Of a stretch of 64,000 nt of DNA, positions 595 to 22,156 are shown one piece after another. A model generated the notes under the pieces. That model searched no databases. It was not told where the DNA came from and worked only from the letters and a program-made list of their open reading frames with translations. The stretch is taken from the IMG/VR virus record IMGVR_UViG_3300028025_002058, positions 1,466-65,465 of that record. One strand, 5' to 3'. Source of the stretch: a virus. Taxonomy: Duplodnaviria; Caudoviricetes. The position numbers and the translations under genes are program-made. Numbering within the stretch: the stretch's first letter is position 1; every line of letters starts with the position of its first letter.

Positions 595-999
595 ATGGGA
601 GACAGAGCAAACTTTGGATTCGTCCAACCTAACGGAAATACAATTGTCCTATACGGGCACTGGTCTGGACATAACATGCTTGCTAATTTAGCAGAGGCAG
701 TATTTAAAGCACGTCCTCGCTGGAATGACACATCATATGCAACACGCATTACAATCAGTCAAATGATTGGTGATGACTGGAATTCTGAAACTGGATGGGG
801 CCTGCATGTAAATGAGATTGGCGATAACGAGCACAAGATTGCTATCGTTGATTTTAATCAACAGACATTCAGTCTTCATGAAGAGGCGCCACGTAATGAC
901 TTAGACAACAAAGTAAATGGGATGAGCAATGAAGCAATCTTCACCATGGACCTCAGCAACTTTGTTGAAAAGTACGCAGACGTGACTATCTCAATTTAG
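595..999 (+). CDS. conserved phage hypothetical protein
   Basis: 134-aa ORF, MGDRAN...LYGHW...PRWND.SYATRI motif. Confidence 0.75.
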   Translation: MGDRANFGFVQPNGNTIVLYGHWSGHNMLANLAEAVFKARPRWNDTSYATRITISQMIGDDWNSETGWGLHVNEIGDNEHKIAIVDFNQQTFSLHEEAPRNDLDNKVNGMSNEAIFTMDLSNFVEKYADVTISI

Positions 1000-1011
1000 T
1001 TAACTAAGATA

Positions 1012-1020
1012 TGCTATAAT
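1012..1020 (+). promoter_or_regulatory. extended -10 promoter
   Basis: TGcTATAAT at the start of a 345-bp intergenic region. Confidence 0.55.
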
Positions 1021-1052
1021 AGTGATTAGGTCCTAGCGGACCTTTTTACTAG

Positions 1053-1177
1053 AAGTAGGGTGCGGCTACCAGGGGTTCCCCCAAGTCGTTAAATAAAGCA
1101 GCGTATACTAAATTCCTTTCGTTCTGCTAGCAGCCTTACTTATCTTAAGATCCTTCAGCTTAGCTGGGGGATTTTTT
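1053..1177 (+). ncRNA. candidate structured sRNA with exposed anti-SD loop
   Basis: Stem AAGTAGGG(1053-1060)/CCTTACTT(1134-1141) encloses arms GCGGCT/AGTCGT and AGCAG/CTGCT; the latter carries TTCCTTTCG; ends in a terminator; no ORF. Confidence 0.45.
1150..1177 (+). terminator. rho-independent terminator
   Basis: ATCCTTCAGC-TTA-GCTGGGGGAT hairpin followed by a T-run. Confidence 0.8.
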
Positions 1178-1290
1178 GTTTGGCCCGCAAAAGACGTGAG
1201 GGTATCATATGTTATTTACGGGTGTCAATATATATCCCTGGAAATTCCAGTATTTGAGATCAATGTGGTGTAGAACACACCCATATTGCA

Positions 1291-1320
1291 TAGACAAATG
1301 TCAGTGGTCTAATATATAAT
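1291..1320 (+). promoter_or_regulatory. early promoter with TGTCAGTGG element
   Basis: TAGACA-18-TATAAT, with TGTCAGTGG starting 16 bp before TATAAT. Confidence 0.7.
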
Positions 1321-1345
1321 TGGGTTATTAGCGAAAGGAAATAAA

Positions 1346-2519: not shown

Positions 2520-2694
2520 TAGATTTCTAGAGTACATGAAACTTCATTTAATTAGTCTTAACCAGGACATGGAGAAAGACTTGAATGTTGAATCTAAGAT
2601 AAACATCCAGGGACAAATTATGGCAACAGAACATTTATTGTCAGTGGCAACTGATATAATGAATAACTCTAACGAAAGGTATAATAATGATTGA
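2503..2694 (+). CDS. hypothetical protein
   Basis: ORF in packed cluster; GAAGGG SD. Confidence 0.6.
   Translation: MATKTSRFLEYMKLHLISLNQDMEKDLNVESKINIQGQIMATEHLLSVATDIMNNSNERYNND
2639..2660 (+). promoter_or_regulatory. early promoter with TGTCAGTGG element
   Basis: TGTCAGTGG-N7-TATAAT with extended TG. Confidence 0.65.
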
Positions 2695-3828: not shown

Positions 3829-3860
3829 CTATTTACAGAATTGTAAATAGTTGATATAAT
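3829..3860 (+). promoter_or_regulatory. promoter overlapped by a palindromic operator
   Basis: TTTACA-17-TATAAT with extended TG; inverted repeat CTATTTACA-gaat-TGTAAATAG (3829-3850) covers the -35. Confidence 0.7.
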
Positions 3861-3891
3861 AAATAAAACATCTCTCGAAAGGGGAAAACAA

Positions 3892-4038
3892 ATGGCAACA
3901 AAGCGTGAATATCTAAAGTCTAAGGGGATCACAGTCGGAGCCCGTGGTCGTTTCTCATCAGCAGCAAAGCAAGCTCTCCAGGAAGCAACATCCAATGGAA
4001 TGACGTTTGAGGCGGAGAAGCCAACCCCAAAGAAGTAA
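3892..4038 (+). CDS. stand-alone Lsr2-like DNA-binding domain (48 aa, not in ORF track)
   Basis: MATKREYLKSKGITVGARGRFSSAAKQAL resembles the Lsr2 C-terminal domain (RExxxxxGxxVxxRGR); own promoter and CGAAAGGGG SD. Confidence 0.7.
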   Translation: MATKREYLKSKGITVGARGRFSSAAKQALQEATSNGMTFEAEKPTPKK

Positions 4039-4050
4039 TTAAACATACAT

Positions 4051-4087
4051 GAGGGGACTGGCGCATGTCGGTCCCCTCTGCTATAAT
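4051..4087 (+). promoter_or_regulatory. hairpin plus early promoter
   Basis: GAGGGGACTGGC/GTCGGTCCCCTC stem; TGTCGGT starts 16 bp before TATAAT (extended TGc). Confidence 0.6.
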
Positions 4088-4107
4088 CTTAAGACGAAAG
4101 GCGGACT

Positions 4108-4524
4108 ATGAAAAACAAAGAACAGCAAATCGGAGAACTTCTGGCTAACTCAGTAGAAGACCACTTCTTCAACCCTGCCGCTCTAGGGCGGTATCTAGCA
4201 GAACAACCTACCTACACCATAGACCGTGTCATCGAAGTAGTCGCATGGATTATTGAGAAGCAGGCACGGCGCTATGAGCGAGAAGTAGAAAACGGCGGAA
4301 TGGTATCAGAAGGTCTTGCTATAGCACATAAGTTAGATTTAGTTATAGATAAGATTAAAGATAAGAATACATTCCAACACGTCAAACTCCCAATAACGGG
4401 GGAGGAGCGGAAACAATTCATTAATCAAATCCCTAATCCCAAAGAACAATCATATAGATACTCCTACTTGAATGAAACAGATACTCGTGGAGATAAAGTA
4501 TATATAGAGCATCCATTCATTTAA
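4108..4524 (+). CDS. hypothetical protein
   Basis: 138-aa ORF with ACGAAAGG SD; last + strand gene. Confidence 0.75.
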   Translation: MKNKEQQIGELLANSVEDHFFNPAALGRYLAEQPTYTIDRVIEVVAWIIEKQARRYEREVENGGMVSEGLAIAHKLDLVIDKIKDKNTFQHVKLPITGEERKQFINQIPNPKEQSYRYSYLNETDTRGDKVYIEHPFI

Positions 4525-6932: not shown

Positions 6933-7452
6933 GCTTTGGAACCCAGAGTTTCTCCTTGTCTTTGTTGTGGTATCGTGCCATAACAAACAATAGATCTGAT
7001 AATCTATTTAGGTAAACTGGAATATTACGATTAATCTTAAAGTCATCATTGTTTTCGTGTATTTCTATTGCCATCCAAACATCTCTTTCGGCACGTCTTA
7101 CAATAGTTCTAGCATTATGTAGAGACCCAGTAGGAAGCACAAATGAGTTTAAAGGCTCTAGGTGCTCGTTATAATCATCTATAACATTCTCTAGATATGT
7201 CACTCTATCTTGTGATATAGTCATTGACTTTGATCCAGCCAAGTCTGCCCCAAGATCAAATAAGTCGTTCTGAATTCTTTCAATTATGTCGTTGTAATAT
7301 TCTGTGGCCATTCCTATTGCAGAGTTAGCTTCATCTACTGAACCTATAGCCTGAATGATAGGACTAATCTTACTTGTACGGACATTGTTGGCTAATGATG
7401 TTCCGCCATCATCACCAGTCTTTGTATAGATTCTAGTTAAATGAATAGACAT
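6922..7452 (-). CDS. pduO: PduO-type ATP:cob(I)alamin adenosyltransferase
   Basis: IYTKTGDDGGT, QNDLFDLGADLA, SFVLP, ARTIVRRAER and YLNRLSDLLFVMAR motifs all intact. Confidence 0.95.
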   Translation of the reverse strand: MSIHLTRIYTKTGDDGGTSLANNVRTSKISPIIQAIGSVDEANSAIGMATEYYNDIIERIQNDLFDLGADLAGSKSMTISQDRVTYLENVIDDYNEHLEPLNSFVLPTGSLHNARTIVRRAERDVWMAIEIHENNDDFKINRNIPVYLNRLSDLLFVMARYHNKDKEKLWVPKHEE

Positions 7453-13054: not shown

Positions 13055-13368
13055 TCCTGACTCTCTCTATCTAGTGGAGTGGGTGCCGTTGCTAAATTAC
13101 CACACTCAACGCATTCCATATCTAGGAAATATGTTGCAATTTCATAGTTATCAAATACGGCTCTAATGTAAAAAACCTGTGATCCGCAAATGCACTCGTG
13201 TGTTGGAGTGCCACGAAGATCCATCCCTGAGACCATTTGGTCTTGACGGGCTTGCTCTACATCATTTTTATCAAAAACTAGTACGTCATACCTATTAAAA
13301 AATTGATGCACAGCTTTAGCACTAAGCAATCCTGCTATTAGTAACGATAATCGATTTGCCCACTTCAT
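13051..13368 (-). CDS. zinc-ribbon protein
   Basis: PTHECICG...ECVECG...APTP motif. Confidence 0.7.
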   Translation of the reverse strand: MKWANRLSLLIAGLLSAKAVHQFFNRYDVLVFDKNDVEQARQDQMVSGMDLRGTPTHECICGSQVFYIRAVFDNYEIATYFLDMECVECGNLATAPTPLDRESQE

Positions 13369-22070: not shown

Positions 22071-22082
22071 GCCTCTCCTTTG

Positions 22083-22156
22083 TGCGACAAGTAGGACTTG
22101 AACCTACGATTACCGAATTATGAGTTCGGGGCTTTAACCAACTAAGCTATTGTCGC
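22083..22156 (-). tRNA. tRNA with CAT anticodon (elongator Met or Ile2), CCA not encoded
   Basis: Acceptor GCGACAA/TTGTCGC; D arm AGCTTAGTTGGTTAAAGC; anticodon arm CCGAA-CTCATAA-TTCGG; T loop GGTTCAAGTCC. Confidence 0.95.

What the first reader, a model, noticed from the sequence alone, without database searches (positions are those of the whole stretch)
1012..1177. Candidate anti-Shine-Dalgarno sRNA complementary to the RBS of four promoter-proximal early genes
Seen: an ORF-free unit between an extended -10 and a strong terminator can fold into a closed multi-arm structure with TTCCTTTCGTT (1113-1123) largely in a loop. The first gene after each of four early promoters has the complementary CGAAAGG SD: CGAAAGGAA 1332 (9/9), AACGAAAGG 2671 (9/9), CGAAAGG 3876 and ACGAAAGG 4094. 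Inference: a trans-acting RNA that shuts off this early gene class, or a 16S 3'-end mimic that masks host GAAAGG SDs. Caveat: hairpin 1028-1043 plus T5 could terminate transcription before the element.
Basis: partly seen in the sequence, partly recalled or inferred. Interest (0 to 1): 0.72.

Follow-up and report, generated by a model that had tools for sequence, protein, structure and literature searches.

The report
Phage small RNA matching early ribosome sites
This uncultured freshwater phage and its relatives carry a folded small RNA of about 150 bases whose loop is the exact complement of a private tag on the ribosome-binding sites of the first genes of their early operons, so it probably controls early protein synthesis, though no experiment has tested this.

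Summary
Window 1012-1178 is an ORF-free unit: an extended -10 promoter, a 5' hairpin, a three-way-junction RNA (1055-1139) and a terminator.

The RNA is real. Homologues occur in 148 of 159 related phage loci (93 distinct sequences). On 83 distinct cores, 94.5% of cells pair, against 26-46% when partners are slid, and 11 of 21 pairs change on both sides. It matches no Rfam family.

All 93 sequences keep CUUUCGUU in the P3 loop. Its complement, AACGAAAG(G), is the consensus Shine-Dalgarno context of a gene class:
- In this genome all 5 plus-strand CGAAAGG copies lie 12-15 nt before an ATG.
- In 99 loci, 435 of 502 CGAAAG copies do so, ahead of 27 unrelated protein clusters, mostly directly behind a promoter.

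The AAC extension does not pair with 16S rRNA. In three lineages the same seed sits on a different hairpin. Two relatives with no RNA found mostly lack the C tag.

Best reading (0.58): a trans-acting antisense RNA that pairs with tagged early ribosome-binding sites. Repression is inferred and expression is unproven. The 16S-mimic reading is disfavoured.

The scan noted this family before in another genome (e1-6003589).

The parts
1012..1020 (+). Extended -10 promoter TGCTATAAT of the RNA gene. The start is inferred at about 1027.
   Evidence: Read. TGnTA[TC]A[AC]T was found upstream of 57 of 82 distinct cores, and a -10 alone in 8 more. It is aligned.
1021..1051 (+). 5' stem-loop (core 1028-1043). 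It is variable in sequence and probably a protective 5' hairpin, not a terminator.
   Evidence: Folded. 56 of the 65 relatives with a -10 fold a hairpin here at dG of -5 or lower. Stem sequences differ between relatives and the T run is not kept.
1055..1139 (+). Three-way-junction core:
- P1: 1055-1061 with 1133-1139.
- P2: 1062-1067 with 1084-1089.
- P2a hairpin: 1072-1082.
- Junction UAAAUAAA: 1090-1097.
- P3: 1098-1102 with 1126-1131, with A1129 bulged.
   Evidence: The covariance model R1 matches 1051-1143 at 83.3 bits, E 8.8e-18. Pair counts on 83 distinct sequences: 94.5% paired against 26-46% slid, and covariation score 0.43 against 0.03-0.10.
1103..1125 (+). P3 loop of 23 nt. It carries the seed: invariant CUUUCGUU at 1116-1123, extended in this phage to UUCCUUUCGUU at 1113-1123.
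   Evidence: CTTTCGTT is present in 93 of 93 distinct family sequences. Per-base unpaired probability is 0.67 against 0.42 for the whole RNA.
1147..1178 (+). Intrinsic terminator of the RNA gene
   Evidence: 13-pair stem plus T run. A strict test found a GC-rich hairpin plus T-rich tail in 52 of 82 relatives. Several more are visible by eye, and 12 have none.
1330..1340 (+). Tagged Shine-Dalgarno AGCGAAAGGAA of gene 1346-2122 (DUF1281_C-like, 258 aa). It can form 11 contiguous pairs with 1113-1123, one of them G-U.
   Evidence: Duplex energy -14.6 kcal/mol, rank 2 of 132 start regions. A promoter lies at 1291-1320.
2671..2679 (+). Tagged Shine-Dalgarno AACGAAAGG of gene 2687-2965 (92 aa, unknown function)
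   Evidence: The -10 TGATATAAT at 2652-2660 was read.
3876..3882 (+). Tagged Shine-Dalgarno CGAAAGG of gene 3892-4038 (Lsr2-like, 48 aa)
   Evidence: A promoter lies at 3832-3860.
4094..4101 (+). Tagged Shine-Dalgarno ACGAAAGG of gene 4108-4524 (138 aa, unknown function)
   Evidence: Duplex rank 10 of 132. The -10 TGCTATAAT at 4079-4087 was read.

Best explanation
Window 1027-1178 encodes an independently transcribed phage RNA of about 150 nt. A three-way junction (P1, P2/P2a, P3) holds out a large P3 loop whose invariant CUUUCGUU, with a few flanking bases, acts as an antisense seed.

The seed pairs with AACGAAAG(G). This is a private 5' extension of the GAAAGG Shine-Dalgarno sequence carried by the first gene behind most early promoters. 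There are five such genes in this genome.

A 10-12 bp duplex over the Shine-Dalgarno sequence would keep 30S subunits off the first cistron of each early operon. Short leaders would then be exposed to decay, so the accumulating RNA damps or ends early-gene expression.

Shown: the structure, the seed invariance, the tag class, the complementarity and their co-occurrence.
Inferred: transcription from the predicted ends, pairing in vivo, and the sign of the effect (repression).
For: 1) A real structured RNA.
- nhmmer finds it in 148 of 159 related loci, giving 93 distinct sequences.
- On 83 distinct cores, 94.5% of cells pair against 25.8-46.0% for slid partners. 11 of 21 pairs change on both sides. 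The covariation score is 0.43 against 0.03-0.10, and 0 of 500 shuffles reach it.
- P2 runs through GCGGCU/AGUCGC, GCCGCU/AGUGGC, GCAUCU/AGAUGC and GCCCCU/AGGGGU.

2) Gene-like unit.
- Extended -10 in 57 of 82 cores and a terminator in at least 52 of 82.
- No ORF.

3) Seed.
- CUUUCGUU is in 93 of 93 distinct sequences although its flanks differ between groups.

4) Tag.
- In this genome, 5 of 5 plus-strand CGAAAGG copies are Shine-Dalgarno sites.
- In 99 non-redundant loci, 435 of 502 CGAAAG copies on the RNA's strand lie 9-19 nt before an ORF start.
- Of 605 GAAAG-type sites, 428 have C at -1, 423 have A at -2 and 465 have A at -3.
- The tag precedes 27 unrelated protein clusters, 12 of them in 8 or more loci.
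- 76% of tagged genes have a -10-like hexamer within 68 nt upstream, against 20% of other genes. Median upstream gap is 119 nt against -1.

5) The AAC extension is not explained by the ribosome.
- 16S ends ...CACCUCCUUU|CUAAGGAG in 5 of 5 Nanopelagicaceae genomes read.

6) Helix length.
- Own loop with own targets gives a mean contiguous helix of 10.57 bp (n=435), against 7.79 with shuffled target flanks.
- Swapping loops between phages gives 10.29, and 0 of 500 permutations reach the own value.

7) The seed moves but is kept.
- L157 has a plain hairpin with loop UUUCCUUUCGUUCU at the same locus.
- G005 has a short scaffold without the P3 loop, plus a new 11-bp hairpin with loop UUCCCUUUCGUU behind its Lsr2-like gene.
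- G002 carries ACCCUUUCGG in the P2a loop.

8) Relatives with no RNA found.
- In G003 and G004, C at -1 occurs in only 4 of 26 GAAAG sites, against 428 of 605.

9) RNA-library contigs.
- Contigs from 3 of 4 metatranscriptomes cover 1008-1100 or 1008-1136. This is weak.
Against: - No transcript ends, strand or abundance could be shown. The RNA-run data are contigs that also span the upstream gene, and DNA carry-over is possible.
- Thermodynamic folding gives only about 0.09 probability that all 8 seed bases are free at once, in the window and as the family median.
- Raw duplex energy is not unique to the tagged genes. They rank 2, 3 and 10 of 132, two of the five are outside the top 15, and an untagged late gene ranks first.
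- The own-versus-swapped loop difference is small (10.57 against 10.29 bp) and confounded by relatedness.
- G002 is 99% complete. It keeps 7 AACGAAAG tags but has no CUUUCGUU on the early strand, and its loop can match only CGAAAGG(G), so AA is unexplained there.
- G001 has a scaffold copy with no CU-rich loop, yet 6 of 15 sites have C.
- The two lineages with no RNA found are 53% and 37% complete contigs.
- The junction bases GGUGC, CUA, UAA-UAA-GC and AGCAGCC are as conserved as the seed. Simple antisense action does not explain that.
- The host is unknown, and Nanopelagicaceae was used only as a stand-in.
Confidence: 0.58

Rival explanations
1. The RNA does pair with the tagged leaders, but the effect is positive. 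Pairing might shield very short leaders from 5'-end-dependent decay, or hand tagged mRNAs to ribosomes, favouring translation of the first cistrons early in infection.
For: This reading rests on the same seed and tag evidence. The RNA's promoter is of the same host-type extended -10 class as the early promoters, so it is made together with its targets. The scaffold junction is strongly conserved, as if it bound a partner.
Against: The duplex covers the Shine-Dalgarno sequence itself. By established knowledge of base-pairing RNAs, that blocks 30S binding. The plain-hairpin forms (L157, G005) show the scaffold is dispensable.
Confidence: 0.1
2. This is a structured RNA with another job, such as binding a protein or small molecule, or acting as a cis leader for downstream genes. 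Its complementarity to GAAAGG-type sites would then be a by-product of a CU-rich loop.
For: Junction nucleotides are invariant while stems covary. A scaffold copy without any CU loop exists in G001. 12 of 82 relatives have no terminator and run into the next conserved element. Seed accessibility in folding is modest.
Against: - The 8-nt seed is invariant in 93 of 93 sequences, and its exact complement is the consensus tag.
- The seed is kept on unrelated hairpins when the scaffold or loop is lost.
- A promoter-like element (TTGGCC-17-TATCAT, 1180-1208) separates the RNA from the next gene.
- No riboswitch or other Rfam family matches, even at E up to 10.
Confidence: 0.15
3. The RNA mimics the 16S 3' end and acts as an anti-Shine-Dalgarno decoy, masking host GAAAGG-type ribosome-binding sites in general to shut off the host.
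For: In this phage the loop holds UCCUUUC, identical to the 16S tail read. The short variants carry only CC(C)UUUC in a hairpin loop. The 9-mer GGUGCGGCU at 1059-1067 equals the 3' strand of 16S helix 45.
Against: - The invariant part is CUUUCGUU, which leaves the 16S sequence after CUUUC.
- The base before it is C, A or U in different groups, and CCUCC is absent.
- The GCGGCU/AGUCGC bases covary freely, so the helix-45 identity is accidental.
- ACGAAAGG occurs 3-53 times per Nanopelagicaceae genome, below its reversed control of 35-97.
Confidence: 0.08
4. There is no RNA gene. The region would be a DNA-level site or the remnant ribosome-binding site of a decayed minus-strand gene.
For: On the minus strand the motif reads AACGAAAGGAA, like the tags.
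Against: - Helices keep pairing through double changes, which only an RNA-level constraint explains.
- No start codon or ORF follows on the minus strand, here or in the aligned relatives.
- The promoter and terminator have plus-strand polarity.
Confidence: 0.02

Closest known systems
Start-Associated Sequences (SAS) of Cluster K mycobacteriophages (PMC3203893; passages read)
   Same: Both are conserved asymmetric motifs that embed the Shine-Dalgarno core. Both sit a few bases before the start codons of a subset of non-structural genes of actinobacterial phages, in one orientation. Both have conserved bases that cannot pair with 16S rRNA. The authors left open whether a host or phage RNA or protein binds them.
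   Different: The motif differs: the 13-bp sequence printed in that paper, against AACGAAAGG here. No partner RNA is known for SAS. Here a phage RNA with the exact complement is encoded beside the tagged genes. SAS genes were not described as promoter-proximal.
c4 antisense RNA of phages P1/P7 and sar RNA of P22 (recalled, no paper read; the Rfam C4 family is in the library searched)
   Same: These are phage-encoded, structured small RNAs whose exposed segments pair with the ribosome-binding region of a phage mRNA and block its translation.
   Different: Those RNAs act on one operon (ant) of temperate phages and are cis-linked or processed from the same transcript. Here one seed faces tags on five operon-leading genes in this genome and on 27 protein clusters in the family. 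There was no Rfam match.
C/U-rich-loop base-pairing RNAs of Gram-positive bacteria: actinobacterial 6C/B11, S. aureus RNAIII/RsaE, Listeria LhrC (recalled)
   Same: These are Hfq-independent RNAs that present pyrimidine-rich hairpin loops to purine-rich Shine-Dalgarno regions of many mRNAs.
   Different: They are host-encoded. Their seeds are C-rich (CCCC or UCCC) and match the generic Shine-Dalgarno core. Here the seed reaches a private extension (AAC) outside the 16S-complementary part. The 6C model did not match.
T4 RegB endoribonuclease (PMC3014915; passages read)
   Same: [quoted passage not shown]
   Different: RegB is a protein nuclease that cuts GGAG with help from ribosomal protein S1. 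Here the proposed agent is an antisense RNA, and the selectivity comes from a tag rather than from sequence context 3' of GGAG.

Membership tests
Trans-acting base-pairing small RNA (generic kind) | Own promoter and terminator, and no coding capacity | tested here: met
   Extended -10 at 1012-1020 and terminator at 1147-1175. No ORF of 25 aa or more. An extended or plain -10 is kept in 65 of 82 relatives and a terminator in at least 52 of 82.
Trans-acting base-pairing small RNA (generic kind) | Conserved secondary structure supported by covariation | tested here: met
   94.5% paired, 11 of 21 pairs with double changes, and slid controls at 26-46%.
Trans-acting base-pairing small RNA (generic kind) | Conserved single-stranded seed complementary to target mRNAs at functional sites | tested here: met
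   Seed in 93 of 93 sequences. Its complement is the consensus tag at 428 of 605 GAAAG-type Shine-Dalgarno sites. Mean contiguous helix is 10.57 bp. Predicted accessibility is only partial.
Trans-acting base-pairing small RNA (generic kind) | Expressed as a discrete small transcript | tested here: inconclusive
   Contigs of 3 of 4 metatranscriptome runs cover 1008-1100 or 1008-1136 but also the upstream gene. Contigs show no ends, strand or level.
Trans-acting base-pairing small RNA (generic kind) | Changes target translation or stability through pairing | not testable with these tools
   This needs reporters with compensatory mutations, or toeprinting.
Rfam families (C4 antisense RNA, 6C and all 4227 models) | Match to the family covariance model | tested here: not met
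   At gathering thresholds only a tRNA-Met was found elsewhere in the window. At E up to 10 over 950-1350, the only match was a chance terminator hit to NsiR1 (17.7 bits against a cut-off of 39).
16S rRNA 3'-end mimic | Conserved copy of the anti-Shine-Dalgarno core CCUCC and tail | tested here: not met
   CCUCC is absent. Only CUUUC is shared, the invariant motif continues GUU against 16S U-3', and the base before it varies.
Riboswitch or cis-acting leader | Lies in the 5' UTR of the regulated gene with a ligand-dependent terminator/antiterminator choice | tested here: inconclusive
   A promoter-like element lies between the RNA and the next gene. 12 of 82 relatives lack the terminator. No alternative pairing was analysed. 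No Rfam riboswitch matched.
Cluster K Start-Associated Sequence system | The 13-bp SAS consensus before start codons | tested here: not met
   The tag here is AACGAAAGG, a different sequence from the consensus printed in PMC3203893. The position and logic are alike.

The most novel reading that the evidence does not exclude
The RNA and tag form a private translation address. The conserved three-way-junction scaffold would dock on the host 30S subunit or on ribosomal protein S1 and supply a surrogate anti-Shine-Dalgarno sequence (CUUUCGUU). Ribosomes carrying the phage RNA would then preferentially start on AAC-tagged first cistrons. This would be an RNA-programmed specialised ribosome, and a mechanistic answer to what start-associated sequences of actinophages are for.
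Probability: 0.05. Interest if true: 0.95.

Novelty: new variant of a known kind. Interest (0 to 1): 0.62.

Why it matters
Phage-encoded regulatory RNAs are known mainly from temperate phages of enterobacteria, and each acts on one operon. Here a whole clade of uncultured freshwater actinobacterial phages appears to run an RNA regulon on its own early genes. One frozen 8-nt seed faces a tag on the ribosome-binding sites of operon-leading genes from 27 unrelated protein clusters.

This would be an RNA counterpart of T4 RegB. It would work in a phylum that lacks Hfq (recalled).

It also gives a concrete, testable partner for the long-unexplained class of start-associated motifs in actinophage genomes. 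The Cluster K paper left open whether an RNA or a protein reads them.

The seed and tag pair is short and portable, so it could serve as an orthogonal translational switch for actinobacteria.

Tried and rejected
- Rfam at gathering and at E up to 10 gave no family.
- blastn ('distant') of 900-1400 against deposited phage genomes gave no match, so no annotated relative was available.
- One scan of 185,579 species genomes with a degenerate scaffold pattern gave 78 stretches. None passes the covariance model except one weak hit at E 0.017 in a Bacteroidetes MAG, taken as chance. No host-encoded homologue was found within the reach of that pattern.
- The idea that 1059-1067 and 1084-1090 copy 16S helix 44/45 segments was dropped, because those bases covary freely in the family.
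- Duplex-energy ranking alone does not single out the tagged genes.
- Metatranscriptome contigs gave cover but no ends. The parts without cover (1161-1313) say nothing.
- A second protein-guided scan from L079 returned almost the same contigs, so the set of relatives with no RNA found could not be enlarged.
- Three MAGs reached through chance pattern hits held no 16S gene. Relatives of one of them were used instead. That family is only a plausible host group, not a shown host.
- Literature searches found no description of this RNA (listings and abstracts only). PMC10202952 was read (part 1 of 2 of the main text). It concerns a different phage family and mentions no RNA gene. Supplements of all papers were closed and may hold transcript or motif tables I could not see.
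- Regex attempts mis-parsed the cores and were replaced.

Full report
**What the window is.** The window is bases 1466-65465 of a 65,465-bp virus record with about 38-40% G+C. Small plus-strand genes fill the first 4.5 kb. Among them are a DUF7455 protein, an Lsr2-like 48-aa protein and a DUF1281_C-like protein. These point to a phage of Actinobacteria. The runs that hold the sequence are freshwater and subsurface metagenomes. Related contigs are plentiful in IMG/VR.

**Observation.** Every coordinate in the finding is right.
- 1000-1179 has no ORF of 25 aa or more on either strand.
- TGCTATAAT lies at 1012-1020, and a 13-pair terminator at 1147-1175.
- The single-sequence fold closes a multi-arm structure with the motif in a loop. 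Its z-score is -3.15 for 1020-1185 but only -1.32 for 1050-1185, without the 5' hairpin.
- The count of CGAAAGG is not unusual: 5 against 3.48 expected. The placement is unusual. In the whole genome all 5 plus-strand copies sit 12-15 nt before an ATG opening an ORF of 48-258 aa. The only minus-strand copy is the RNA's own antisense. One tagged gene lies just upstream of the window.

**The RNA is real.**
- blastn found the stretch in 64 loci at 71-94% identity.
- A profile found it in 148 of 159 loci, giving 93 distinct sequences and 82 distinct cores.
- RNAalifold and a covariance model give P1 (7 bp), P2 (6 bp) capped by the variable hairpin P2a, a conserved junction UAA(G/A)UAAAGC, and P3 with a bulged A and a 16-25 nt loop, followed by AGCAGCC.
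- On 83 distinct sequences, 94.5% of cells pair against 25.8-46.0% for slid partners. 11 of 21 pairs change on both sides. The covariation score is 0.43 against 0.03-0.10.
- The model matches the window once, at 1051-1143, with 83.3 bits.
- No Rfam family matches.
- A pattern scan of species-representative genomes gave no credible bacterial copy.
- The 5' hairpin varies in sequence, loses its T run in relatives and is missing in some. It is therefore not a conserved early terminator.

**Seed and tag.** All 93 distinct sequences keep CUUUCGUU in the P3 loop, while the flanks fall into groups: AAUUC-, UUUUA-, UUUUUC- and UUAUUU- on the 5' side, and -UGAC, -GGUR, -GAGGU and -GGAAA on the 3' side.

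On the target side, in 99 non-redundant loci (746,584 bases):
- CGAAAG occurs 502 times on the RNA's strand, and 435 of these lie 9-19 nt before an ORF of 30 aa or more.
- The other strand holds 79 copies, none so placed. That strand carries few genes in these loci.
- Among 1935 crudely called genes, 605 have GAAAG in the Shine-Dalgarno window.
- Of those, 428 have C at -1, 423 have A at -2 and 465 have A at -3. The consensus is AACGAAAGG, the exact complement of the seed.
- The tag precedes 27 unrelated protein clusters. These include DUF932, DUF1281_C-like and Lsr2-like proteins.

Tagged genes are operon leaders:
- 76% have a TA[TC]AAT within 68 nt upstream, against 20% of other genes.
- The tag usually starts 10-17 nt after the -10.
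- The median upstream gap is 119 nt against -1.

**Not the ribosome's own complement.** In five genomes of the family of a Candidatus Planktophila MAG, 16S ends ...GGTGCGGCTGGATCACCTCCTTT|CTAAGGAG. GAAAGG therefore pairs with the tail, but C at -1 and the AA before it do not. ACGAAAGG is rarer than its reversed control in those genomes: 3-53 against 35-97 per genome. That family is only a stand-in, since the host is not shown. The 9-mer shared with helix 45 is an accident, because those positions covary.

**Tests of the link between seed and tag.**
- Own loops form a mean contiguous helix of 10.57 bp with own targets (n=435). The figure is 7.79 with shuffled target flanks and 10.29 with loops swapped between phages. 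0 of 500 permutations reach the own value. The effect is small and relatedness confounds it.
- Where the usual loop is lost, the seed reappears elsewhere:
  - L157 has a plain GC hairpin with loop UUUCCUUUCGUUCU plus a terminator at the same locus.
  - G005 has a short scaffold whose P3 loop is replaced by a small hairpin. It also has an 11-bp hairpin with loop UUCCCUUUCGUU directly after its Lsr2-like gene.
  - G002 carries ACCCUUUCGG in the P2a loop.
- In two lineages where the model found no RNA (G003, 53% complete; G004, 37% complete), only 4 of 26 GAAAG sites have C at -1. A, the 16S-complementary base, is the commonest there.

**Results against the reading.**
- G002 (99% complete) keeps 7 AACGAAAG tags without any CUUUCGUU on the early strand, so AA is unmatched there.
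- G001 has a scaffold copy without a CU loop, yet C at 6 of 15 sites.
- Predicted simultaneous accessibility of the 8 seed bases is about 0.09.
- Duplex energies rank the tagged genes 2, 3 and 10 of 132, with two lower and an untagged late gene first.
- RNA-library contigs cover 1008-1136 in 3 of 4 runs, but they also span the upstream gene and cannot show ends or strand.
- The conserved junction is unexplained by simple antisense action.

**Mechanism proposed.** Host RNA polymerase makes the RNA from an early-type extended -10 promoter. As the RNA accumulates, its loop nucleates pairing with AACGAAAG(G) a few bases from the 5' end of each early operon mRNA. The loop contains UUCG, which fits the YUNR U-turn motif of fast-pairing antisense loops (recalled, not tested). 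The duplex covers the Shine-Dalgarno sequence and blocks initiation on the first cistron. Loss of translation of the leader gene would then lower expression of the whole operon. The pairing potential is shown. Expression, pairing in vivo and the sign of the effect are inferred.

**Comparison and novelty.** It works like the c4 and sar antisense RNAs of P1/P7 and P22, and like the pyrimidine-loop RNAs of Gram-positive bacteria (recalled). Functionally it resembles T4 RegB (passages read). It matches none of their models.

Its target side closely parallels the start-associated sequences of Cluster K mycobacteriophages.

Three literature searches found no description of this RNA.

The scan itself noted the same family before in another genome, with the same reading (e1-6003589). 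It has noted similar loop and ribosome-site pairs in other phage groups.

I class it as a new variant of a known kind.

Noticed in passing
window 1180-1262: Directly after the RNA's terminator lies a block conserved in nearly all relatives, including those without a terminator. It reads TTGCCCGCAAAAG..TGAGGGTA(G/T)CAT, then TTTACGG, GTCAATAT and CCCTGGAAATT. It looks like a promoter (TTGGCC-17-TATCAT) with a conserved spacer. In some relatives CCCTCA and TGAGGG form an inverted repeat. Function unknown.
   Followed up: partly
window 1209-1319: A 36-aa Cys-rich ORF starts at an ATG 8 nt after GAGGG. If TATCAT (1203-1208) is a -10, this ATG could not be in that transcript. Whether the ORF is real was not tested.
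   Followed up: no
window 1296-1305 and 2636-2645; also the genome just before the window: Three early promoters share TTGTCAGTGG as the -35 region ahead of their -10. The RNA's own promoter lacks it.
   Followed up: partly
L333 reverse strand about 13105-13160 (same as L278 about 7345-7410): In one relative, the terminator hairpin behind the Lsr2-like gene carries the seed UUCCCUUUCGUU as its loop. An mRNA 3' end may there do the job of the small RNA. The matching hairpin of this window (4045-4078) has no seed.
   Followed up: partly
L160 1501-1576 (minus strand): A paralogous scaffold copy has its own TTGACA-17-TAAAAT promoter and terminator, lies 2 kb downstream of the DUF1281_C-like gene, and has no CU-rich loop at all. 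The scaffold may have a role of its own.
   Followed up: partly
window 22082-22156 (minus strand): tRNA-Met (CAT anticodon), 73.1 bits. It is the only Rfam or ARAGORN hit in the window.
   Followed up: no
window 1059-1067 and 1084-1090: GGUGCGGCU and AGUCGUU are identical to segments of the 16S 3' minor domain read in Nanopelagicaceae. Family covariation shows this is coincidence.
   Followed up: yes
window 600-1000: Contigs from four freshwater metatranscriptome runs cover the 134-aa gene 595-999 (phrog_31860, unknown function). Summed word depth reaches 112 in one run. That depth sums contigs of several strains and is no measure of expression.
   Followed up: no
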